A stretch of 64,000 nt of DNA, taken from contig JAJYDG010000001.1 in the NCBI GenBank assembly GCA_021777675.1, forward strand, positions 4,997 to 68,996, read 5' to 3'. The notes below the pieces were generated by a model that was given only the letters and a program-made list of their open reading frames with translations, made no database searches and was not told the DNA's origin. Origin of the DNA: a bacterium (lineage in GTDB: Bacteria; Patescibacteriota; Minisyncoccia; Moranbacterales; UBA2206). A program made the translations under genes and the position numbers. This document shows, in pieces, positions 6,843-59,386 of this stretch (the stretch's first letter is position 1; the number at the start of each line of letters is the position of its first letter).

Positions 6843-7854
6843 GCATATGTTCACAAAATATTTCATAAAATTATCGACTACAAACATAAAAGACTTAAAG
6901 GGTTCTTCTTTTCAAATACTAAAATATGCCCTAAGTAGAGATATTGAAGTATATAGAGTTTTTTCTGACAAAAGAATTCTCGTCCTAAAAAAAGACTCAA
7001 AGCAAGTTTGGATAGACACCTCTCTCACTTCAAAAACAAATCCCGTAGGTATGAGAATAGCAAGAAATAAACATCTCTCAAAGAAATTTTTAAAAAAACT
7101 GGGGTATCCCGTCGCACCAAGCATAAACATGCAAAGTAATGACGACTGCACTCAAATCAGTAATCAAGCAATATCGGAAATAGGCTTTCCATTAGTGGTT
7201 AAGCCGCTAAGAGCTGCTGAGGGAAAGGGCATTACAACTAACATCAATAATAAAGATCTCCTTTTAAATTCGATTCAATCAGCTTTAAAATTTGATAAAA
7301 AAATAATGATCGAAAAACATATTGCCGGTGATTATTACAGAATAACTTATGTGGCAGATGGTGCCTATGCGGTTACAAAAAATCTTCCGGCATATATTAC
7401 TGGAAATAATTCCAACACCATCAGGGAGCTAATTTCAATAGAAAACATTAACAATAAAGAAAGACGCGGAAGGGGAAAATTAAAAAAAATTAAAATTTCA
7501 GAAAAAACTGAAAGATTTTTAGCATCTGCCGGATATACATTTGATTCAATTCTGCCTAAGAATATTAAAATACCTCTTTGCTTCAGCGGATTTGATGGTG
7601 GAGAATATATAAATGTGACAAAAAAAGCTCACCCGTATTTCATAGAAATAAGCAAACAAATATCTGAAAGCCTAGGCTTGCCAATAGTCGGCATTGATAT
7701 TGTCTCACAAGCTATAAATATTCATCCAAAATTAAACAATGGAGTTATAATTGAAATAAATGGCACATACCCAGATATTCTATTTCACAATAAACCAACT
7801 TACGGGGAGGCCACTAGCCTCATCCCTAATCTTATTGATTACTTGTTTTCTTAA
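6829..7854 (+). CDS. ATP-grasp ligase, cyanophycin-synthetase-like ATP-grasp domain (no Mur-ligase domain)
   Basis: …GFPLVVKPLRAAEGKGITTNINNKDLL…EKHIAGDYYRITYVADGAYAVTKNLPAYITGNNSNTIRELISIENINNKERRG…LGLPIVGIDIVSQ… parallels the CphA N-terminal ATP-grasp region; start ambiguous (ATG 6829 or 6847; ORF track used TTG 6826). Confidence 0.65.
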   Translation: MFPNKHMFTKYFIKLSTTNIKDLKGSSFQILKYALSRDIEVYRVFSDKRILVLKKDSKQVWIDTSLTSKTNPVGMRIARNKHLSKKFLKKLGYPVAPSINMQSNDDCTQISNQAISEIGFPLVVKPLRAAEGKGITTNINNKDLLLNSIQSALKFDKKIMIEKHIAGDYYRITYVADGAYAVTKNLPAYITGNNSNTIRELISIENINNKERRGRGKLKKIKISEKTERFLASAGYTFDSILPKNIKIPLCFSGFDGGEYINVTKKAHPYFIEISKQISESLGLPIVGIDIVSQAINIHPKLNNGVIIEINGTYPDILFHNKPTYGEATSLIPNLIDYLFS

Positions 7855-19599: not shown

Positions 19600-20801
19600 T
19601 GCTAAATTTTATTCTGTTTCCTTTTTTTTGGTTGGGGGCAAGACTGATTAGATTCGGTCTGTGTATGTTTGGTTTTAAAAAAGTAGTTGCGGTGCAAATA
19701 TCCAATTACCGTGACGAAGCCGATGTCCGGCTGTTTGGTTTTTGGAATATCGAAAAAGCTCCGCGTGTTCTTTCATGGACTCAGTATGCATGGGAAGGAA
19801 TACGTGGAAAACTTTTTATGATCCGCGTTACGACGGATCAGATAAAGAAAGCCTTGGAGAATGCAGCGTCATCGCCAAGAGAGTTATTGCGCATCCGTGA
19901 ATTATTTATGGAAGCGGTTGATGAAGCGATCAAGTTGGGTGTCAAAAACGTTCTATTGGCTGCCGCAACAAAGAGGCTTTTCAAGAAAGGAGAACTTGAA
20001 TTATTGTTTCCCGGAGTGATTTTTACTCTTGGGGATAATTTTACAGGCCTATTACTTGCTAGACGCATAAAGGATAATTTTCGGATATATGGATTGAATC
20101 CGAAAACATCCAGAGTGCTTGTGATAGCACCATATGGATTTTTAGGTAAGGTGGCGCTATGCACAGTTTGCGAACTTGGTTGCCAGGTTGTCGGTTTTGG
20201 AAACTCAAAAAGACCGGAACTGACAAATGGTTTGGCAAAAAAATTTGGCTTTTTTCCGGTATTTGATTTTTCGGATGTTGGAAAAGTTGATATGGTCATT
20301 GCTTGCAGCGAGGCAAGACCGGTTCAGTTAACTCCGGAAAGAGTAAAGATGATTCGCAAGGCGGGAAAAAAATTGATTGTTATTGATCCTTGCGAACCGG
20401 CAAATATGACGCCGGAAATGGTGAAAAAATGTCTCGGCGCAGTAACGCGTTTCGACGCCGGAAATGGATATAGCTCGAGATTGAAATATGTTCTCGGTTA
20501 TGTTTCATACCGGGTTTTGAGACTCACGAAAGGAGAAACGTGGGGCTGTTTTTGCGAAAATTTTTTAATCGCAAAACATGAAAATCTCCAACAAGAGGAG
20601 GATTGGTTTTCCGTGACGCCGGAGCGCATTGAGCGTCTAAAAAAATACTATGGCAATGGAATGGGGCAGTTTTGTTTGCCACCGGCAAGTTGTCATGGAA
20701 AAAGCATAACAACATTTCCCCTTTATTTTTCAGAGGGAAAAATAAAAAATAAAGGGGCTTTTAATCTCGTTTGGGATGGGATTAAAAGTATTTTTTTGTA
20801 A
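19600..20801 (+). CDS. hypothetical protein, possible Rossmann-fold (shikimate/amino-acid dehydrogenase-like) domain; locally GC-enriched
   Basis: ATG at 19600 preceded by AAAGGAGG SD; …VLVIAPYGFLGKVALCTVCELGCQVVGFGNS… resembles an NAD(P)-binding segment; GC visibly higher than flanks. Confidence 0.4.
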
Positions 20802-20811
20802 ACCGTTTATA

Positions 20812-20850
20812 GGGCTAAGTGAGAAAAATTTCTCACTTAGCCCGTTTTTA
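20812..20850 (+). terminator. rho-independent terminator (13-bp perfect stem GGGCTAAGTGAGA / TCTCACTTAGCCC + T-run)
   Basis: directly seen 11 nt after the stop of the 19600-20801 gene. Confidence 0.75.
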
Positions 20851-23768: not shown

Positions 23769-24464
23769 TCATTTCCTCACCAACTCCACCCGAATCCTTT
23801 TCGCCATAATTTTCCCATCATCGTCCCGATAATCTCCTTCTTCGGCCACTTTTTCAAAGCCCAGAAGTTTAACAATTTTATGCGACGGACCATTTTCCGG
23901 TACGTGCGCAATTAGTTTTTTTGCACCGCTAGAAAATTCTTTTTCCACAATTTCACGCAAAAAGTTTTCTCCGAAATAGAATTTTTGCAGAATCGGATCG
24001 ATATTCATCGCGCCCAAATAACGCTCGCCTTCCGGCAATGTTTCAATTTGCCCGTCGGATTTTACGAGGCAATTTGATGAACGCATAAAACCAACCATGT
24101 TTTCCAAAGACTTTTTTGGCTTGTCATTATTGTCTTTATCAAAATAGATCAAATAAAATTTGGGATTGTGCTTCTTGTGCGTTTCAAAATCAGTTAATAA
24201 CCGTGCCTGGTCTTCTTTGGATTTATGCTCAATGCTCGCGCGATACATCTCGGTGAGTTTTTCCACCAGTGCCGGATTTTTCACAAACCCCTCTTCACTG
24301 ACAGTTTCCATTTCCACCCCGCGAATATCTTCCAATTTTTGCCCCTCACCAGCTTTTTTGGTTGCAATCAAAAGCGCCGCCATAATCTCAATGTCGATCC
24401 GGCTTTTTTCCAAATCCATCAAAAGTTTTTGGATTTTTTCCTCGCTCGCCTTTCCGTTTTTCAA
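23769..24464 (-). CDS. hypothetical protein with possible C-terminal GNAT-like acetyltransferase fold
   Basis: 231 aa; C-terminal …QKFYFGENFLREIVEKEFSSGAKKLIAHVPENGPSHKIVKLLGFEKV… resembles GNAT motifs A/B; N-terminal half uncharacterised. Confidence 0.4.
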   Translation of the reverse strand: MKNGKASEEKIQKLLMDLEKSRIDIEIMAALLIATKKAGEGQKLEDIRGVEMETVSEEGFVKNPALVEKLTEMYRASIEHKSKEDQARLLTDFETHKKHNPKFYLIYFDKDNNDKPKKSLENMVGFMRSSNCLVKSDGQIETLPEGERYLGAMNIDPILQKFYFGENFLREIVEKEFSSGAKKLIAHVPENGPSHKIVKLLGFEKVAEEGDYRDDDGKIMAKRIRVELVRK

Positions 24465-24536
24465 TTCATTCGCAAATTGTAGGATTATACCATGAGCTTT
24501 TCTGAGTAGCTCCGTCCAAATATCCGCCGGAATTTT

Positions 24537-26114
24537 TTATTCTTTGTTCTTGAAAATAATTCCGGCCAGACTTTCGCTTTTTTGTTGAGCCAAGTCAACA
24601 ATACCGGATACTTTTTGAAAAATTTTCATCGCGTCCACTGAATCAATCTTTTCTCCTATCTTCAATATATTTTTCCCATTTTCAATATCAAATTCGCAAG
24701 TCAGGAATGTTTTTAAGCCGGAAAGCCCATATTTTTTAGTAAAATCTAACAATTGTTCTTTTTGTCCTTGCGTACTCAACTCAAAAGCGGCAGCGGCCAA
24801 CCACTGTTGTTCCTTCCAACTAAGATTATGAATTCCAATGCCACTTTTTTGGGAAAATTCATCACTTATTTTTTGAAGATAATTATAATCACCCAATAAA
24901 CTTACCCGTTCGGCATATTGCTCCGGCGATTCTTCTCTTTTTTTCTGGCTTTCCTTTGTTCGCAACCACGGACGAATCCTCTCGTTCATTTCTCTCTTAT
25001 TCAAAAATGTTCTGGCGGAAAGTTCACTACTCGAACTGTTGGGAAATTTTTCTTGCACTTCCGCTTTTTTTTCTTCTTTTTCTTTTTCGCTCAGTAATGG
25101 AAAGATATATTTTATTTCCTCTTTACCATCAGTTCGCACTACTACTCCCACCGTTTCTCGATCAAGCAGAACGGTTTTGATGTTTTCTGTCGGATATTTT
25201 TTGCCTTCAAAGATAAAGCCCTCTCTGCCCAGATAATATTTAACCCCGCCATGGGAGAAAAAATTAGCTTCTCCTTTTTTCATTTCCTTTTTTTCTCGCA
25301 ACAATTCTCCGCTCGACCCGGTTGCTATCACCCCAAAATCATCCATACGCAACATTCCATTAGCCAAAAGATGCGGGCATTCTTTCCGTAAAAATCGATG
25401 GATGGAAGATTTCATTTCCGTGAAAGAAAAATTGCCCATATTCTCCTCCAGCCAATCGATACTTAACGGACGATAAGCCTCTCTTTTTTTATCAAATACC
25501 AATAATTTTCCGTCCTTATTCCGCTTCGCGCCATATTCCCGATAAAGCTTGGTAGTTAAAGCAAATTCTTTCGGATTTATTTCCTCTCCATTTTTTGCTT
25601 GAAATTTAAAATTATTCCAAGATGTTTTCTTACTGATATCCCAAAAATTCAAATGATATTTTTTGGCCTTTAGCTTTTCTTCATTAAAAGATTCTTCTAT
25701 GCTATCCGGAACATTGAAAAGTGGCGTGGCGACAATATCTTTTCCCCCCTCACTTTTTTGCTGATACTCCTGCGGAGTTACGACATACAAATCACGCAAA
25801 GCATCAAATAATTCTTGCTTGCTTGATCGTAAAGTAAGCCTAGCGATTTCACTTGCATCCGCTTTTTTTGTCTTTTTTTCATCTTTCAAGGAAATTTCTA
25901 CCAAAAAACGTTCCACATCAAAAACAGCTAATTCATTTTCAAATTTCAAAATTCCGTCTTTTTCCAAAGCGGAAAAAACTTTTTCCCTCAAAGAATTGTT
26001 TTCTTTGTTTTCTAATCTATTTCCTGACACATTGAAATCAACTTTTTCATCCGCCTTTTTCTTGCTACCCACTGGCGTTTTGAAATAACCCTCTCCTTCT
26101 TCATATTTTCGCAT
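24537..26114 (-). CDS. large hypothetical protein (525 aa), no recognisable domain
   Basis: long uninterrupted ORF with balanced, Lys/Glu-rich composition typical of this genome; co-oriented with and 72 nt upstream of the GNAT-like gene. Confidence 0.6.
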   Translation of the reverse strand: MRKYEEGEGYFKTPVGSKKKADEKVDFNVSGNRLENKENNSLREKVFSALEKDGILKFENELAVFDVERFLVEISLKDEKKTKKADASEIARLTLRSSKQELFDALRDLYVVTPQEYQQKSEGGKDIVATPLFNVPDSIEESFNEEKLKAKKYHLNFWDISKKTSWNNFKFQAKNGEEINPKEFALTTKLYREYGAKRNKDGKLLVFDKKREAYRPLSIDWLEENMGNFSFTEMKSSIHRFLRKECPHLLANGMLRMDDFGVIATGSSGELLREKKEMKKGEANFFSHGGVKYYLGREGFIFEGKKYPTENIKTVLLDRETVGVVVRTDGKEEIKYIFPLLSEKEKEEKKAEVQEKFPNSSSSELSARTFLNKREMNERIRPWLRTKESQKKREESPEQYAERVSLLGDYNYLQKISDEFSQKSGIGIHNLSWKEQQWLAAAAFELSTQGQKEQLLDFTKKYGLSGLKTFLTCEFDIENGKNILKIGEKIDSVDAMKIFQKVSGIVDLAQQKSESLAGIIFKNKE

Positions 26115-26168
26115 AGTTCTAATCTTAATCTACTTATAGCCAATACTCATATTTTATACTATTTTAGG

Positions 26169-26210
26169 AAAAATAAAAAAGCCGTACATTGGGTGGTGAC
26201 CAAATGACGG
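26169..26210 (-). terminator. intrinsic terminator-like hairpin for a minus-strand transcript (GCCGTCAT…ATGTACGGC then U-run on minus strand)
   Basis: imperfect 8-9 bp stem 26181-26210 followed on the minus strand by TTTTTTATTTTT (A-run 26169-26180 on plus). Confidence 0.45.
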
Positions 26211-26653
26211 CTTTACGTTCGTGGTTGCGAACTGATTTTGCCCATCCTATTGCCGGGACCAGCTAGCAGGGATTCACGCGTTTACCGACTGCTTTGCGAC
26301 CGTTTGAGACTAGCAAAAAAACTAGTGAGTCTAGGATTTTAGACCCCAACCGGGTCAAACTTGACTGGTTGCCATCGGCAAGGGCAACCTTCTGGCCCCG
26401 AGAGGGGACCAGAAGGATGATCCTGCATCGTATGTTCTACGATGCAGGACACTTCCTTTCACAAATGTGAAAGAAAATGCCCTTCTTACTACATACTCAT
26501 GCTGGGGATCCTCCCAGCGAAGGCACAGACATTCGCCTGTACCTTCAATGACACCACTCCTAAAAAGGAATGGCATCAAAAAATTTAATTCTTCGGAGAT
26601 CCACATTGATCCTCCCCTGCCCGACTTACGCTTCGGGTCCGAGCGTTTTTTTT
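26181..26653. ncRNA. candidate large structured RNA (unidentified): GC-rich (~50%) run of near-perfect hairpins bounded by outward-facing hairpin+U-run structures
   Basis: hairpins seen directly: CCTTCTGGCCCC-GAGA-GGGGaCCAGAAGG (26396-26424), TCCTGCATCGTA-TGTTC-TACGATGCAGGA (26430-26458), TTTCAC-AAAT-GTGAAA, GCTGGG-GATCCT-CCCAGC, GAAGG…CCTTC; right end hairpin + TTTTTTTT at 26622-26653 (plus strand); strand undetermined. Confidence 0.35.
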
Positions 26654-26895
26654 GATTGTTTTTTCCGATCGCCATTTCAATTTTTGATTTTTTCAAAAAC
26701 TCAAACGGCAACCGGAAATGTAAACAACCTTTTTTAAACAACTTTCTTTCTCAAATCACAAACTATTTTATGATCTGGGATAAAAGCAGGAGAAAGCGCT
26801 TGGTGGCGTGGTGCGCCGTCGGCGTTGCGTGCGCTCTCTCCTCTATTTTGTGGTTGGCCGGTTTTTGTCAAAGACTGGAGCCGGCTTTCTCCGTT

Positions 26896-27330
26896 TTATC
26901 TGATTCCGAGAAAAATCTTCTCGAAATCAGCACAGAAAGGCCTCGGGACATAGTCCCAAGCCTTCCATTGTGCTTCCCAATTACTGGTGCTATTGCACCA
27001 GTAATAAAACTTGGAAAGCGCTTCTTTTTTTGCCACTAGTTCCTCGACCGAGGAACCCATGGCGTCGAGGACTATTTGCATAGCCCTCCCTATATCCGCC
27101 CCGTACGCGTGCGCATACGAGTAGAGAACACTCGAATCATTCCGGATGTTCTCTTCTGGTCTGATCCATATGTGGCCGTTGGCCACAAAATAGATCAATT
27201 TTTCTTCAAATTTTTTTTTGCTCTCACAGAAATCCGTGAGAGCATTTCCATTCCAACCTTCCACTGGATCGCTCCAGTTTCCGGCTGACGCCCTTCCGAG
27301 AAACTCGAAAGGGTTTAATTTTATTTCCAT
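26896..27330 (-). CDS. orphan GC-rich hypothetical protein (145-174 aa) inside the GC-rich block
   Basis: ORF track 26896-27420; internal ATG at 27330 (MEIKLNPFEFLGRASAGNWSDPVEGWNGNALTDF…); non-repetitive, Trp/Tyr-rich protein-like composition unlike the rest of the window; could also be a chance ORF in GC-rich structured DNA. Confidence 0.35.
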   Translation of the reverse strand: MEIKLNPFEFLGRASAGNWSDPVEGWNGNALTDFCESKKKFEEKLIYFVANGHIWIRPEENIRNDSSVLYSYAHAYGADIGRAMQIVLDAMGSSVEELVAKKEALSKFYYWCNSTSNWEAQWKAWDYVPRPFCADFEKIFLGIR

Positions 27331-27378
27331 TTCAACTCCCGTCCCATTTCTACCCCGCCAGACGTAGCGGCTAAAACA

Positions 27379-27550
27379 TTTACCACTAATAAAACTTAGT
27401 GGTATCCGGTTATTGACCATCGGAACCGGAAATTCCTATCCCCATTTTAGCTGGGGAATACTGGGTCAGTTCGCATCATTGCTCGTAATGAGTGGCGAAC
27501 CGAAAACTTATTCCCGGGGGACGAAGCGCTGATCCCCGGGTGTTTTTTTT
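27379..27550 (+). ncRNA. candidate small structured RNA or leader: five consecutive hairpins ending in a strong intrinsic terminator
   Basis: ACCACTAA-N6-TTAGTGGT, TCCGGTT…AACCGGA, CCCCA…TGGGG, GTTCGC[ATCATT…AATGA]…GCGAAC, then CCCGGGGG-N13-CCCCGGG + TTTTTTTT (27513-27550); no downstream plus-strand gene for ~800 nt. Confidence 0.3.
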
Positions 27551-28187
27551 GACTTTTCCCCAGAAAATTCCAGATTAAATGAATCCTAGATATTCGATGT
27601 CCATTATGGACATTAAATGTCTTTGTGCCCGGAATCTTTTGGGAAAAAGCCAAAGTATTTATTTTTTAACGAACTCTACGAACTAGCTCTTCTTTTCTAA
27701 TTCACAAAAATGCCAGTGATAATTTACATTTAATTTTCGAAGAAGAGAGATTTTGACGAAAAATCAAATTATATTCTCATCACTAGCATTTTTCTAAAGA
27801 TGATTCATAATCATCTCTAGCTCTCTTCTTTTTATTCGTAATCAAATGCACTTCTAGACTCTCTTCTATTGGAAAGCCTGCTTCCGATTTCAAAAATAAA
27901 TTGAAACCGGAGACCACTTTCCATCTCGCGATGGCTCGCGAAATGTGAAACGAATTTGTTTGCCTTGTCCTAGCCAACCAATCCATAACCCTACAAAAAA
28001 TTAATGGATTGCCTATCTCTCTCTACTAAGACTTTGGTATGCCTTTTCGTTTCTTGTGCCATTCAATGATCCTTTTCGTCTTGAACATCTTTTTTTCTTT
28101 CGAAAATTAGAAAATTTCAGGACAATCGTGATACATTATTTGATTGAAAGAACTTTGTTTTGTTAAGTGAAGATTCTCTCTTCTTCG

Positions 28188-28208
28188 ATTGCCAATCTCT
28201 CTGGCAAT
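28188..28208. promoter_or_regulatory. palindromic candidate operator ATTGCCA-N7-TGGCAAT upstream of the TrmB-like regulator gene
   Basis: 7-bp perfect inverted repeat with 7-nt spacer, ~80 nt upstream of the -35 element. Confidence 0.3.
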
Positions 28209-28290
28209 TCATCTTAACAAGCAAGTATAGCATCTTTTAAGCTAACTGTCAATTATACTCGACTTATTTTGCTTATTTTTATTTTATAAA

Positions 28291-28319
28291 TCCTAAATTG
28301 TTGACAATTTAAGCCATAT
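28291..28319 (+). promoter_or_regulatory. sigma70-type promoter: TTGACA - 17 nt - TATACT
   Basis: consensus -35, 17-nt spacer, near-consensus -10; ~60 nt upstream of the 28379 start codon. Confidence 0.6.
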
Positions 28320-28378
28320 TTGCTATACTTAACTTGTCGTCGCTTTTATTCGACATCTAGGCTTTTTTAGTCAATATC

Positions 28379-29131
28379 ATGAACCTATCTGACCAACTAA
28401 TCCAATTCGGGCTCAACAGAAACCAAGCAGAGACTTATCTGGCACTTTTGGAATTGGGACAATCCGGCGTTATTCCGCTTGCCAAAAAGACCGGCATCAA
28501 GCGGACGACACTCTATGACATCTTGGTGGAACTCGAGAAAAAACAACTGGTAGCGCAGACAAAAAAGGCCACAAGAAGGCTTTTTATTGCGCTTGAGCCA
28601 TCGAATCTGGAGAAGGTTTTAGAAGAAAAACGCGAAAGACTAGAAAGTTTGATGCCGGCACTAAAAGCCCTGGTCAACACGACCGGAACCAAACCCGTAA
28701 TCCGCTACTATGAAGGCTTGGAAGGCATCAAGGAAGTCTATCGTGACACCTTGAGTTATAGCGGAGAACTTTTGGCCTTTGTGGCGGAAAACATCTTTGA
28801 CAAGCTAGGCAAGGAGTTTGCTGATGAGTATAAAACCAAGCGCAAAAAGGCTCAGATTGGCGTGCGCATTTTGGTGCCGGAAACACCGGAACTCAAAAAA
28901 GAGCTGGTTACGGTCAAGGAAGACTTGCGCATCTATCGCTTTGTCCCGAAAGAAAAATATCCCTTCACAATGGAAATGAATCTTTATGGCAACAAAATGG
29001 CGCTAATGTCCTTTCAAGAAGAATTGGGCGTGATCATTGAAAGCAATGAAATCAGCCAAAACCTGCGCTATCTTTTTGAGCTAGCATGGACTGGTGCTAA
29101 ACCAAAAGGGGAAGAGGAAAATTATTGGTAA
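28379..29131 (+). CDS. TrmB-family (sugar-responsive) transcriptional regulator
   Basis: N-terminal winged HTH …LNRNQAETYLALLELGQSGVIPLAKKTGIKRTTLYDILVELEKKQLV… typical of HTH_TrmB, with a C-terminal TrmB-like effector domain; GC higher than genome background. Confidence 0.7.
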   Translation: MNLSDQLIQFGLNRNQAETYLALLELGQSGVIPLAKKTGIKRTTLYDILVELEKKQLVAQTKKATRRLFIALEPSNLEKVLEEKRERLESLMPALKALVNTTGTKPVIRYYEGLEGIKEVYRDTLSYSGELLAFVAENIFDKLGKEFADEYKTKRKKAQIGVRILVPETPELKKELVTVKEDLRIYRFVPKEKYPFTMEMNLYGNKMALMSFQEELGVIIESNEISQNLRYLFELAWTGAKPKGEEENYW

Positions 29132-58978: not shown

Positions 58979-59007
58979 TGACTCAACTTGAAATTCTTGC
59001 TATAATA
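58979..59007 (+). promoter_or_regulatory. sigma70-type promoter TTGACT - 17 nt - TATAAT
   Basis: near-consensus -35 and consensus -10 in a 670-bp ORF-free spacer; ~35 nt upstream of the 22-bp inverted repeat. Confidence 0.5.
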
Positions 59008-59044
59008 AATACATTAGAACATTAAAAAAATAAAAATAAAAACG

Positions 59045-59099
59045 GTAAAACAATTTTCAATCACAATTTCCCCCTATTTGTGATTGAAAATTGTTTTAC
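59045..59099. repeat. 22-bp perfect inverted repeat (GTAAAACAATTTTCAATCACAA / TTGTGATTGAAAATTGTTTTAC) with 11-nt loop
   Basis: directly seen; would form a very stable hairpin at the 5' end of any transcript from the upstream promoter. Confidence 0.75.
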
Positions 59100-59386
59100 T
59101 GTTCAAGTGTTTTGGCCAACGTGTCAAAGCCGCTTCGATTTCTGACATCGGAGACCCAAAATAAAAACAAAAATTATTTATACAAAATAAAAAAATAAAT
59201 AATAAAAAAATAGTTCTTTCAAATTCAAAGGTGAAAAATCACCAGAGAATGGTAAAACAAAATTTCTAGAGTCAGAATGGAAATAAACAAAAGTTATGTA
59301 TATAAAATACATGTTTGTTATAACATTGATGCCACTCACCCGGCTAAAATGTTTCCGCATAGCATGTTAATACATGACAAACACTG

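What the first reader, a model, noticed from the sequence alone, without database searches (positions are those of the whole stretch)
26150..27560. GC-rich, ORF-poor, hairpin-dense ~1.4 kb block bounded by outward-facing terminators: candidate novel structured RNA(s) or foreign insertion
Surrounding genes are ~30-35% GC, whereas this segment is visibly ~45-50% GC. It consists of back-to-back near-perfect hairpins: a 12-bp stem with GAGA loop, a perfect 12-bp stem with UGUUC loop, and many 5-8 bp stems. The structured core 26181-26645 is flanked on the left by A12-then-hairpin (a terminator for a minus-strand transcript) and on the right by hairpin-then-T8 (a terminator for a plus-strand transcript). 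A second hairpin cluster at 27379-27550 ends in a strong plus-strand terminator (CCCGGGGG…CCCCGGG TTTTTTTT) with no gene downstream. In AT-rich reduced genomes, GC-rich islands of this kind are usually stable RNAs (RNase P RNA, tmRNA, SRP RNA, large ornate RNAs) or acquired DNA. I could not find the diagnostic motifs of tmRNA (tRNA-like 3' end), RNase P (P4 strands in the right places) or SRP helix 8 (GGAA tetraloop). Only partial similarities appear (CCCGACUUAC resembles the RNase P P4 3' strand; UGCCGGGA..AGCU.GCAGGG resembles an SRP helix-5 strand), so this may be an undescribed RNA class or a degraded mobile insert. The only ORF-track ORFs here are a 128-aa minus-strand frame that overlaps the hairpin run and a 174-aa orphan frame; neither resembles the native proteins.
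Basis: seen in the sequence. Interest (0 to 1): 0.75.

Follow-up and report, generated by a model that had tools for sequence, protein, structure and literature searches.

The report
Hairpin-packed mRNA of variable small genes
The GC-rich, hairpin-dense block is not a stable non-coding RNA: it is the body of a minus-strand operon of small, fast-changing protein genes in a Moranbacteria (CPR) genome, and its messenger RNA is folded into conserved stem-loops almost end to end, coding regions included, which is unusual and has no described counterpart that I could find.

Summary
The block at 26150-27560 is 45-51% GC against about 31-36% in the flanks, and it is the strongest folding outlier in the 64-kb window. 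Two corrections apply. The structure lies on the minus strand. G·U against A·C wobbles in stems run 28:7, where the background is about 1:1, and local folding gives -547 kcal/mol for the minus strand against -450 for the plus.

The block is also not ORF-poor. It is the distal part of a roughly 2-kb minus-strand transcription unit, running from a promoter at 28252-28224 to a terminator at 26212-26167. The unit holds a 555-nt conserved leader and two ORFs preceded by Shine-Dalgarno (SD) sequences. Gene A (144 aa) has four homologues, a third-codon-position substitution bias and only in-frame indels. Gene B (83 aa) has no homologue and sits in a hypervariable slot.

The "outward-facing" plus-strand terminators are an A-run plus a GC hairpin inside conserved modules that sit just upstream of each start codon.

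Related Moranbacteria carry the same layout: a TrmB-family regulator, divergent promoters, an array of small ORFan cassettes, then a large GNAT protein. Cassette coding sequences (CDSs) fold with z = -4 to -13, while ordinary genes sit near 0. Substitutions in gene A preserve its hairpins.

There is no Rfam match, no recombinase and no attC site. The function of the hairpins is inferred, most likely RNA stabilisation and processing.

The parts
28224..28252 (-). Promoter of the cassette operon: TTGACA, 17 nt, TATACT with an upstream TG. It is divergent from the TrmB-gene promoter at 28301-28329.
   Evidence: The scan gives 11 of 12 matches. The same promoter and transcript start (TTAAGATGAATT) are conserved in L016, L018 and L042, with a similar one in L044 and L021.
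27661..28215 (-). Conserved non-coding leader of about 555 nt, with repeated GAAGAGAG / CTCTCTTC motifs.
   Evidence: It aligns with L016, L018 and L007 (A4). A 10-nt indel in L007 destroys the 67-aa ORF, so the leader is non-coding. Folding z is -6.7 sense and -3.3 antisense. Rfam at E <= 1 returns only chance matches.
27467..27649 (-). Pre-cistron module 1. It holds a long hairpin (27649-27553), an A8 run (27550-27543), a GC hairpin (27542-27513) and a further hairpin (27502-27467).
   Evidence: It is 90% identical to L007 7361-7554, the best-conserved DNA in the block. The architecture was read from the sequence.
27331..27466 (-). Short hairpins and the gene A translation initiation region. 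A CCGCTACGTCTGGCGG hairpin is followed by the SD GGGAG at 27340-27336.
   Evidence: Homology to L014 and L015 begins at 27366, 36 nt upstream of the ATG.
26896..27330 (-). Gene A, a 144-aa protein of unknown function (MEIKLNPFEF...). Its coding sequence is made of consecutive conserved hairpins.
   Evidence: Homologues are P0001 (identical), P0002 (78% identity), P0003 (77%) and P0005 (E = 1.8e-38). There is a third-position substitution bias and only in-frame indels. Folding z is -13.2. The hairpins are kept by compensatory change. There are no Pfam, PHROG, PADLOC or PDB sequence matches.
26607..26895 (-). Intercistronic region with repeated modules. These are a post-stop hairpin (AAAACGGAGAAAGCCGG...CCGGC), further hairpins, a 25-bp AU-rich long hairpin (26718-26662), an A8 run (26653-26646), a GC hairpin (26646-26628) and the SD GGAGG.
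   Evidence: It is 92% identical to L015 921-1117. The same unit occurs three or four times between cassettes in L014 and also in L021. The long hairpin is paired in 98.9% of cells across 7 copies, and variation runs through G·U pairs (A5). In 5 genomes homology stops exactly at the ATG (A2).
26355..26606 (-). Gene B slot: an 83-aa ORFan ORF (MWISEELNF...). It contains the most perfect hairpins, including the 12-bp stems.
   Evidence: SD plus ATG are conserved in 5 genomes, but the ORF that follows is unrelated in each: 83 aa here, 182 aa in L015, 106 aa in L007, 118 aa in L014 and 137 aa in L021. The only database match is itself. GC by codon position is flat at 0.48/0.49/0.45, so translation is uncertain. 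Folding z is -8.8.
26165..26354 (-). Conserved 3' tail ending in the operon's intrinsic terminator: stem 26212-26181, then a T-run at 26180-26167.
   Evidence: It is 85-87% identical to L015, L016, L018 and L019. Homology resumes at the stop codon / TAAAATCCTAG. The hairpin followed by T6AT5 on the minus strand was read from the sequence.

Best explanation
The block is the coding and intercistronic body of a roughly 2.05-kb minus-strand operon. It belongs to a locus type conserved in Candidatus Moraniibacteriota (CPR/Patescibacteria). In that locus a TrmB-family regulator gene faces a consensus promoter. The promoter drives a long leader and then an array of small ORFan gene cassettes that are often swapped between relatives. 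A gene for a large protein with a C-terminal GNAT domain follows.

Shown:
- The transcript is selected to fold into back-to-back local stem-loops along nearly its whole length, including inside the coding sequences.
- Each cassette is preceded by conserved RNA modules: a roughly 25-bp AU-rich hairpin, an A-run, a short GC hairpin and the SD.

Inferred mechanism:
- The long intercistronic hairpins act as processing or stabiliser signals. The pattern resembles RNase III sites in polycistronic mRNAs. The resulting 3' hairpins would block exonucleases, and the GC hairpin next to the SD would protect the new 5' end.
- The dense short hairpins in the coding sequences leave little single-stranded RNA for endonucleases or for Rho. 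This would give long-lived, insulated messages for each cassette.
- Cassettes are exchanged by homologous recombination in the conserved modules, because homology breaks exactly at the start and stop codons.
- The high GC content is a consequence of selection for stems. It is not a signature of foreign origin.
For: Strand:
- Local fold of 26165-27560 gives -546.8 kcal/mol on minus and -449.8 on plus.
- Wobbles in strand-symmetric stems are G·T:A·C = 28:7 on minus, against background values of 67:71 and 102:77. L014 gives 64:14 and L007 gives 21:9.

Transcription unit:
- Promoter, SD plus ATG and terminator, and a conserved leader.

Coding:
- Gene A has homologues at 77-78% identity plus P0005 at E = 1.8e-38.
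- Substitutions by codon position are 15/15/32, 23/19/45 and 26/24/48, and all indels are in frame.

Structure under selection:
- The hairpins of gene A occupy the same positions in three homologues.
- Substitutions between the window and L014 break 18 pairs, where permutation gives 34.3 +/- 3.7. Double compensatory changes number 8 against 2.2 expected (P = 0.001). One-sided G·U-type changes number 21 on the sense strand and 6 on the antisense strand.
- RNAalifold predicts 106 pairs, 20 of them with both sides changed and the pair kept.

Generality:
- Cassette CDSs in the window, L014, L015, L007, L041, L042 and L044 fold with z = -4 to -13. TrmB, PolA, the response regulator, the 525-aa gene and the slot genes of L003 and L001 fold with z between -1.7 and +2.2.

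Array architecture:
- Repeated intercistronic units in L014.
- TrmB, promoter and cassettes in L021, L016, L042 and L044.
- Mosaic replacement of cassettes between relatives that are 85-92% identical.
- Module homology ends at the ATG.

Long hairpin:
- 25 bp, paired in 98.9% of cells across 7 copies.

GC:
- 0.545 in paired positions and 0.32 in unpaired positions.
Against: - There is no expression data. The promoter, the transcript ends, any processing and translation are all inferred from sequence.
- Gene B has no homologue and no codon-position GC periodicity, so part of the block may be non-coding RNA.
- The stabilisation, RNase III and anti-Rho roles are untested, and I did not check whether this genome encodes RNase III or Rho.
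- Some cassettes are only weakly structured. Three of the four L021 cassettes (87, 206 and 90 aa) give z = -2 to -3 while the fourth (137 aa) gives -5.8, and the L044 97-aa and 106-aa genes give about -1.5.
- The distant gene A homologue in L040 keeps only some hairpins in register.
- G·T asymmetry would also arise if one DNA strand folded as ssDNA.
- The A-run plus GC hairpin elements are good plus-strand terminators, so antisense transcripts cannot be excluded.
- No cassette protein has a recognisable function, and the AlphaFold model of gene A was unusable at pLDDT 40.7.
Confidence: 0.7

Rival explanations
1. The primary product is a new large structured non-coding RNA, or several of them, and the ORFs are incidental or secondary. 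A dual-function RNA is a softer version of the same idea.
For: - Folding z-scores are extreme.
- In gene A, hairpin-preserving changes alter amino acids on both arms. AMGSSVEELVA becomes AIDVSVEALVA.
- Gene B has no homologue and flat codon-position GC.
- L042 has about 0.9-kb stretches with z = -7.8 and -13.6 that hold only short ORFs.
- No Rfam family matches, so it would be new.
Against: - Gene A is a real protein family kept across genomes with 46-50% and 35% GC in the CDS. It shows a third-position bias, in-frame indels and a conserved SD plus ATG.
- Every cassette slot between modules is filled by an SD-led ORF in 6 or more genomes.
- The fold is a chain of independent local hairpins whose sequences are not conserved between slots. 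There are no conserved junctions or long-range helices.
Confidence: 0.12
2. This is an integron-like or rAID-like cassette platform. The hairpins would be single-stranded-DNA recombination sites (attC-like), and cassettes would move by site-specific recombination.
For: - The array holds same-orientation, promoterless, small ORFan cassettes behind one promoter, with repeated structured intergenic elements and skewed GC.
- Cassette content differs between close relatives.
- A one-strand bias of the hairpins is also a property of attC sites.
- rAID-1 clusters are described with the same hallmarks (10.1101/471110, read).
Against: - No tyrosine recombinase appears among the ORFs from 17 to 37 kb of the window, nor in L041, L042/43 or L044 by precomputed Pfam.
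- No R''(RYYYAAC)...R'(GTTRRRY) pair at attC spacing occurs anywhere in the window or the arrays.
- Hairpins fill the coding sequences, not only the junctions.
- Homology breaks at the start and stop codons rather than at a core site.
- The hairpins sit on the sense strand together with the SD sites.
Confidence: 0.08
3. This is a foreign insertion, prophage remnant or degraded mobile element, and its GC content and palindromes are compositional relics.
For: - GC is higher than in the host genes.
- The array is absent from the same slot in L001 and L003.
- MITE-like insertions lie in the leader of L007 and L018.
- One L021 cassette hits a PHROG of unknown function.
Against: - The same architecture, with the same promoter, sits next to TrmB in Moranbacteria whose anchor protein is only 37-46% identical.
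- Viral contigs give no true match.
- There are no integrase or transposase genes.
- The hairpins are maintained by compensatory change and carry a strand-specific wobble bias, so they are under selection rather than decaying.
Confidence: 0.05
4. The hairpins are a mutational by-product with no function, for example from template-switching that perfects quasi-palindromes.
For: Many stems are perfect over 9-12 bp. Template switching yields multi-base 'compensatory-looking' changes in one step (established knowledge, not tested here).
Against: - Template switching makes Watson-Crick palindromes that are symmetric between strands. The stems here carry a 4:1 excess of G·U over A·C on the sense strand in four genomes.
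- One-sided changes through G·U number 21 on the sense strand and 6 on the antisense strand.
- The effect is confined to the cassette operon and is absent from neighbouring genes of equal GC. TrmB has GC 0.45 and z = -1.6.
Confidence: 0.05

Closest known systems
Integron cassette arrays and CALINs (attC-separated cassettes)
   Same: One promoter is followed by same-orientation, promoterless, mostly ORFan small cassettes. Structured repeats separate them, and cassette content differs between close relatives.
   Different: There is no IntI. There are no R''/L''/L'/R' boxes. The hairpins are on the sense (mRNA) strand and extend through the coding sequences. Cassette boundaries fall at the start and stop codons. 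The neighbouring conserved gene is a TrmB-family regulator, not a recombinase.
rAID-1 (recombinase-associated acquired interbacterial defence) clusters of Bacteroidales (Ross et al., bioRxiv 10.1101/471110)
   Same: [quoted passage not shown]
   Different: rAID-1 is defined by a XerD-family recombinase and by homology to immunity genes. Neither is found here. Hyper-structured coding sequences are not a described feature of rAID-1.
Intercistronic processing and stabiliser hairpins in polycistronic mRNAs: RNase III sites of the phage T7 early region, REP/BIME in malEFG, and the puf operon (own knowledge, not re-read here)
   Same: Conserved long hairpins lie between cistrons, and hairpins abut the 5' and 3' ends of each cistron. 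This is the mechanism I think most likely.
   Different: In those systems the structure is confined to the intergenic regions. Here the coding sequences are also built from conserved hairpins, and the cistrons themselves are hypervariable.
Large ornate bacterial ncRNAs (OLE, GOLLD, ROOL, HEARO, raiA) and housekeeping RNAs (RNase P, SRP, tmRNA, 6S)
   Same: It is a GC-rich, strongly folding island in an AT-rich genome.
   Different: No covariance-model match appears even at E <= 10. It has no multi-helix junction architecture. It is protein-coding, with SD sites. The sequence is not conserved between slots.
Rickettsia palindromic elements inserted in frame in protein genes (own knowledge)
   Same: Palindromic, hairpin-forming sequence lies inside open reading frames of a reduced genome.
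   Different: RPEs are copies of one repeat family. Here every hairpin is unique, they tile the whole gene, and they are maintained by compensatory substitution.

Membership tests
Known Rfam RNA families (RNase P, tmRNA, SRP, 6S, OLE, GOLLD, ROOL, HEARO, raiA, group I/II introns, riboswitches) | Covariance-model score at or above the family's gathering threshold | tested here: not met
   Across the whole window only 4 tRNAs pass. At E <= 10 on 26000-27700 and E <= 1 on 27500-28300, the only matches are eukaryotic miRNA or snoRNA models far below threshold. ARAGORN finds no tmRNA.
Protein-coding gene (gene A, 26896-27330, minus strand) | An ORF kept open in homologues, excess third-position substitution, in-frame indels and an SD plus start codon | tested here: met
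   Four homologues of 123-147 aa. Substitutions by codon position are 15/15/32, 23/19/45 and 26/24/48, and all indels are multiples of 3. The SD GGGAG lies 5 nt before the ATG.
Protein-coding gene (gene B, 26355-26606, minus strand) | Homologues or a codon-position signal, in addition to an SD plus start codon | tested here: inconclusive
   The conserved SD plus ATG, and an ORF that exactly fills the slot, support coding. Against that, the only database match is itself and GC1/2/3 is flat at 0.48/0.49/0.45.
Integron / CALIN | An IntI tyrosine recombinase next to the array (integron proper) | tested here: not met
   No Phage_integrase hit appears among the ORFs at 17074-37437 of the window, nor among the called genes of L041-L044.
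Integron / CALIN | attC sites: imperfect palindromes of 57-141 nt bounded by RYYYAAC and GTTRRRY | tested here: not met
   There are zero such pairs in the window, on either strand, and zero in the arrays of L007, L014, L015 and L021. This was a simple consensus scan and not the IntegronFinder covariance model.
Integron / CALIN | Same-orientation promoterless cassettes separated by related structured repeats | tested here: met
   L014 has 3-4 copies of a roughly 240-bp unit between cassettes. The window has one such unit between genes A and B.
rAID-1 clusters | A conserved XerD-family recombinase and immunity-gene homology | tested here: not met
   No recombinase was found. Of the 18 different cassette proteins scanned across, each against at least one library, none has a Pfam or PADLOC hit and the only PHROG hit is of unknown function; six L014 and L021 cassettes went to Pfam only and two to PHROG only.
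RNase III-type intercistronic processing sites | A conserved intercistronic RNA helix of about two turns (20 bp or more) | tested here: met
   The helix is 25 bp, is paired in 98.9% of cells across 7 copies from 5 loci (4 distinct genomes), and carries conserved G·U pairs on the sense strand (A5).
RNase III-type intercistronic processing sites | Cleavage in vivo, and presence of rnc in the genome | not testable with these tools
   No transcript-end data are available, and the genome outside the window was not examined.
Intrinsic (Rho-independent) terminator bounding the unit | A GC-rich stem followed by a U-run on the transcribed strand | tested here: met
   On the minus strand the stem is 26212-26181 and is followed by T6AT5. 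It is conserved in L015. The elements at 26628-26655 and 27513-27550 meet the definition only on the plus, antisense strand.

The most novel reading that the evidence does not exclude
Moranbacteria carry a previously undescribed kind of gene-cassette platform. Hypervariable small genes are expressed from 'hyper-structured' mRNAs, and the RNA hairpins are co-selected with the protein code, at times overriding it. Conserved pre-cistron RNA modules would serve both as expression and processing signals and as the recombination handles for cassette exchange. In a stronger version, the hairpin RNA itself has a function: a dual-function RNA, a decoy for or protection against RNA-targeting nucleases, or an RNA or ssDNA intermediate in cassette transfer.
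Probability: 0.3. Interest if true: 0.8.

Novelty: new variant of a known kind. Interest (0 to 1): 0.6.

Why it matters
If correct, this shows that a CPR lineage keeps a dedicated, regulated slot for rapidly exchanged ORFan genes without any recognisable recombinase. It also shows that selection for RNA secondary structure can dominate whole bacterial coding sequences. Stems are preserved by paired substitutions that change the protein.

That would matter in four ways:
- It gives a natural test case for how mRNA structure controls message lifetime, Rho and RNase access, and translation in reduced genomes.
- It warns that scans for GC-rich, strongly folding islands, the standard route to new ncRNAs in AT-rich genomes, can pick up structured mRNAs.
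- It marks out a set of unknown small proteins, and a large GNAT-domain partner, that may act in the interactions of these episymbionts with hosts or phages.
- For annotation, it corrects 'intergenic structured RNA' to 'operon of two small genes with conserved RNA modules'.

Tried and rejected
- **Rfam.** I ran gathering thresholds on the whole window and E-value mode on 26000-27700 and 27500-28300. Only tRNAs and chance miRNA or snoRNA matches appeared. ARAGORN found no tmRNA.
No covariance-model score supports either.
- **Cassette protein function.** There are no Pfam, PHROG, PADLOC or PDB-sequence matches, apart from one PHROG of unknown function for an L021 cassette.
- **AlphaFold2 of gene A.** With 3 sequences the model reached pLDDT 40.7, so I ran no fold search.
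- **Metagenome scan.** The conserved module pattern gave one true locus (L021) and one chance hit in a high-GC organism (L022).
- **Viral contig scans.** One returned nothing. The other returned 13 hits, none of which extends beyond a roughly 30-nt match when compared with the arrays.
- **Window 174-aa ORF against L007 141-aa ORF.** They are unrelated, which first suggested non-coding DNA. The explanation is that slot 1 holds different cassettes in the two genomes.
- **attC consensus scan.** It returned nothing.
- **More module copies elsewhere in the window.** None were found.
- **Literature.** Searches for CPR integrons and for Moranbacteria structured RNAs found nothing relevant.
- **Technical.** A first z-score scan timed out and was rerun in parallel.
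Full report
**1. Checking the observation**

GC rises to 0.45-0.51 across 26200-27550, against 0.31-0.36 on both sides. There is a perfect 12-bp stem with a TGTTC loop at 26421-26449. Perfect stems of 7-11 bp lie at 26367, 26456, 26980, 27039, 27171, 27219 and 27381.

The segment 26165-26655 folds far better than dinucleotide shuffles on both strands. The plus strand gives -184.9 kcal/mol (z = -7.9) and the minus strand gives -208.1 kcal/mol (z = -9.6). None of 100 shuffles is as stable.

I scanned the whole window in 150-nt windows with 12 shuffles each. The minus strand of 26250-28050 is the strongest outlier, with z down to -10.5, and it is consistently more stable than the plus strand.

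A strand-symmetric hairpin count gives 10-11.5 hairpins per kb here, against 3.3 per kb in the rest of the window.

The physical observation is therefore real and well beyond chance.

**2. Which strand, and is it RNA?**

Folding with a 70-nt span limit gives -546.8 kcal/mol for the minus strand of 26165-27560 and -449.8 for the plus strand.

I then found stems with a rule that treats G·T and A·C alike. The rest of the window gives 67:71 and 102:77. Homologous arrays in other genomes show the same bias on the equivalent strand: L014 gives 64:14 and L007 gives 21:9.

The stems are therefore selected in a single-stranded copy of the minus, sense strand. With the promoter, SD sites and terminator all on that strand, RNA is the simplest reading.

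**3. Known RNA families**

Rfam 15 at gathering thresholds finds only four tRNAs in the window. E-value mode on 26000-27700 and on 27500-28300 returns only chance matches to eukaryotic miRNA and snoRNA models. ARAGORN finds no tmRNA.

**4. The block is not ORF-poor**

The organism is a Candidatus Moraniibacteriota (CPR), because its PolA is 84-87% identical to PolA in several such MAGs. Read on the minus strand, the region is laid out as follows:

| Coordinates (minus strand) | Feature |
|---|---|
| 28252-28224 | Consensus promoter, TTGACA-17-TATACT |
| 28215-27661 | Conserved leader |
| 27649-27467 | Module 1: long hairpin, A8 run, GC hairpin, further hairpin |
| 27330-26896 | Gene A, 144 aa, SD GGGAG |
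| 26895-26607 | Intercistronic region, ending in a 25-bp AU-rich hairpin, an A8 run, a GC hairpin and the SD GGAGG |
| 26606-26355 | Gene B, 83 aa |
| 26354-26165 | Conserved tail, ending in an intrinsic terminator (stem 26212-26181, then T6AT5) |

Gene A has the identical P0001, plus P0002 at 78% identity and P0003 at 77%. An exhaustive HMMER search adds P0005, 142 aa, at E = 1.8e-38. P0005 is encoded in a much more AT-rich genome with its own terminator (L040).

Substitutions between the three closer genes fall 15/15/32, 23/19/45 and 26/24/48 on codon positions 1/2/3, and every indel is in frame.

Gene B is less certain. Its SD and ATG are conserved in five genomes and the ORF fills the slot exactly. 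However, its only database match is itself, and its GC is flat across codon positions.

**5. What the terminators are**

The left element is the operon's own terminator on the minus strand. It is conserved in L015.

The two plus-strand 'terminators' at 26628-26655 and 27513-27550 are, on the sense strand, an A-run followed by a GC hairpin just upstream of an SD. Module 1 is the best-conserved DNA in the block, at 90% identity to L007.

The second module, (A)n-GCTCGGNCCCGAAGCG-TAAGTCGGGCAGGAGG-N5-ATG, is shared by the window, L015, L014, L021 and L007. Its homology stops exactly at the start codon (A2).

These elements could still terminate antisense transcription. I cannot exclude that.

**6. 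A variable cassette array**

BLAST against the syntenic locus L015, whose flanking genes are 85-89% identical, gives a mosaic:

- The leader, the 5' part of gene A, the intercistronic modules (92%) and the 3' tail are conserved.
- The window's gene B slot (260 nt) is replaced in L015 by a 540-nt segment encoding an unrelated 182-aa protein.
- The segment upstream of gene A differs between the two.

In L007, both slots hold unrelated ORFs of 141 and 106 aa, between the same modules.

L014 carries the gene A homologue inside an array of at least 9 small same-strand genes. A repeated unit of about 240 bp separates them, and it contains the same post-stop hairpin and the same long AU hairpin as the window.

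L021 shows the start of such an array: a TrmB gene on the opposite strand, a TTGACA-17-TATACT promoter, a leader, then four cassettes.

I used the adjacent 525-aa gene as an anchor. In L015 it is a single 776-aa gene, and its homologues carry a C-terminal GNAT domain. More distant loci show the same layout:

- L044 (Moranbacteria GW2011_GWF1_36_4) has TrmB, the promoter, five small genes with no Pfam match, each followed by a GGGCAAG...CTTGCC hairpin plus CTTCAATAAA, and then the 841-aa protein.
- L042 and L043 have TrmB, the same promoter and transcript start (TTAAGATGAATT), a 750-nt leader, and cassettes preceded by a long hairpin, a GC hairpin and an SD.

In L001 and L003 the same promoter slot holds a single ordinary gene.

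No recombinase is present in any of these loci. No attC-type R''/R' pair exists. Viral contigs give no true match. No further module copy occurs in the window.

**7. Hyper-structured coding sequences**

This is the unusual part. Folding z-scores, from 30 dinucleotide shuffles with an 80-nt span, are as follows:

| Sequence | z (sense strand) |
|---|---|
| Window gene A | -13.2 |
| Window gene B | -8.8 |
| L014 gene A | -9.9 |
| L015 gene A | -10.7 |
| L015 182-aa cassette | -10.2 |
| L014 198-aa cassette | -10.8 |
| L007 cassettes | -6.0 and -7.3 |
| L041 142-aa cassette | -7.1 |
| L042 324-aa cassette | -10.5 |
| L044 135, 169 and 212-aa cassettes | -4.7, -4.1, -5.9 |
| L040 gene A | -4.6 |
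| Controls: TrmB (same GC, 0.45), PolA, response regulator, 525-aa gene, slot genes of L003 and L001 | -1.7 to +2.2 |

A few cassettes are only weakly structured: three of the four in L021 and two in L044.

In gene A the hairpins occupy the same alignment positions in the window, L014 and L015. Changes on the two arms compensate even when they change the protein. For example, GCCAUGGGUUCCUCGGUCGAGGAACUAGUGGC (AMGSSVEELVA) corresponds to GCCAUCGACGUCUCGGUCGAGGCGUUGGUGGC (AIDVSVEALVA).

I took the structure predicted from one sequence and scored it in another. For the window against L014, substitutions break 18 pairs, where permuting the same substitutions gives 34.3 +/- 3.7. None of 2000 permutations is as low. 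There are 8 double compensatory changes against 2.2 expected (P = 0.001). One-sided G·U-type changes number 21 on the sense strand and 6 on the antisense strand.

RNAalifold on four sequences predicts 106 pairs, 20 of which have both sides changed with the pair kept.

The 25-bp intercistronic hairpin is paired in 98.9% of cells across 7 copies. Eight of its pairs vary through G·U and two by double change. The shuffle control there is not significant, because there is little variation.

GC is 0.545 in paired positions and 0.32 in unpaired positions. This fits the view that the GC excess is a by-product of stem selection. Control genes show a milder version of the same contrast, so this point is only supportive.

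**8. Mechanism**

Shown:
- A conserved transcription-unit architecture.
- Protein coding for gene A.
- Sense-strand RNA hairpins maintained by selection through both the coding sequences and the intergenic regions.
- Modular conserved elements in front of hypervariable ORFs.

Inferred:
- The roughly 25-bp intercistronic helices act as processing or stabiliser signals. Known cases are the RNase III sites of the T7 early mRNA, REP in malEFG and the puf operon. I cite these from my own knowledge.
- The GC hairpin next to the SD protects the downstream 5' end.
- The short hairpins in the coding sequences minimise single-stranded RNA that endonucleases or Rho could reach.
- Cassettes are swapped by homologous recombination in the modules.

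I put about 0.7 on 'structured polycistronic mRNA of a variable small-gene array'. I put only about 0.35 on the specific stabilisation and processing role.

**9. Rivals**

- **Pure non-coding or dual-function RNA (0.12).** Gene B and some long, nearly ORF-free structured stretches in L042 favour it. The gene A protein family argues against it.
- **Integron-like or rAID-like platform using ssDNA hairpins (0.08).** The architecture is strikingly similar. rAID-1 is described as having skewed GC, a XerD recombinase and integron-like repeated intergenic sequences (10.1101/471110). The defining recombinase and the attC boxes are absent here.
- **Foreign or degraded element (0.05), and mutational palindromes (0.05).** The conserved architecture, the compensatory changes and the strand-specific wobble bias argue against both.

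**10. Novelty and verdict**

I found no description of such a locus or of coding sequences tiled with conserved hairpins. No known RNA or protein family matches.

I classify it as a new variant of known kinds: a cassette array with repeated structured spacers, and a structured polycistronic mRNA. The possibility that it is a distinct system remains open. Its function, its expression and the role of the cassette proteins are unknown.

Noticed in passing
window 23769-26114 (minus strand): The 525-aa and 231-aa ORFs are one gene split by a single in-frame TAA at 24537-24539, where L015 has CAA (Gln). L015 encodes an intact 776-aa protein and L007 a 711-aa one. Homologues carry a C-terminal GNAT acetyltransferase domain. 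The stop is also present in independent assemblies (L036, L037), so it is a real nonsense allele, a read-through site or a genuine split gene.
   Followed up: partly
window 28224-28329: Two near-perfect divergent promoters, both TTGACA-17-TATACT with an upstream TG, lie back to back between the cassette operon and the TrmB-family regulator gene (28379-29131). The arrangement is conserved in L003, L016, L021, L042 and L044. This suggests that TrmB autoregulates and controls the slot.
   Followed up: partly
L018 about 740-1050 (alignment A4 columns 400-708) and L007 about 7555-7700: MITE-like insertions with terminal inverted repeats CCAGCACTAACTTT... sit at different positions of the conserved leader in two genomes. 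They are absent from the window.
   Followed up: no
window 27700-28200 (minus strand): The leader contains at least five copies of GAAGAGAG and the complementary CTCTCTTC, conserved in L007, L016 and L018. They could form alternative pairings or be protein-binding sites. No Rfam riboswitch matches.
   Followed up: partly
L014 926-946, 1935-1955, 2679-2699; L021 1838-1870, 3025-3055: The repeated intercistronic unit carries an SD-like GAGGTGG followed by a mini-ORF that begins MFFE(K/N) and runs 6-14 codons. It is conserved in five copies but is absent from the window's unit. It may be a leader peptide or a translational-coupling element.
   Followed up: no
window 58979-59105: A consensus promoter (TTGACT-17-TATAAT) is followed about 35 nt later by an inverted repeat of roughly 25 bp, essentially perfect (AAAACGGTAAAACAATTTTCAATCACAA...TTGTGATTGAAAATTGTTTTACTGTT), in a long AT-rich intergenic region. 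It is the second-strongest folding outlier in the window, with z = -9.4 on the plus strand.
   Followed up: no
window 20715-20850: Two strong hairpins lie around the 3' end (stop at 20801) of the 413-aa gene, the first inside the ORF's last codons. The first (CCCCTTTATTTTT...AAAAATAAAGGGG) is palindromic and could work on either strand. The second (GGGCTAAGTGAGAAAAATTTCTCACTTAGCCC, then a T-run) is an ordinary plus-strand terminator. Together they explain the z-score outlier there.
   Followed up: yes
L015 921-930 against window 27014-26801: In the L015 lineage a 213-nt deletion fuses gene A to the downstream intercistronic region. This gives a truncated 123-aa protein with a new C-terminus (SPAFIPDHKNSL). 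The same allele occurs in 7 contigs from different samples, so it is not an assembly error.
   Followed up: partly
L044 4090-4135, 4612-4655, 5040-5085, 6455-6500: In the distant Moranbacteria array, four of the five cassettes (97, 135, 106 and 212 aa) are followed by a GGGCAAG...CTTGCC-type hairpin (GGGAAAAG...CTTTCCCC after the 106-aa one) and then a conserved CTTCAATA(A/G)A-like motif; the hairpin after the 169-aa cassette (GGTGAACTTG...CAAGTTCACC) is different. This is a different inter-cassette repeat from the window's, in the same architectural position.
   Followed up: no
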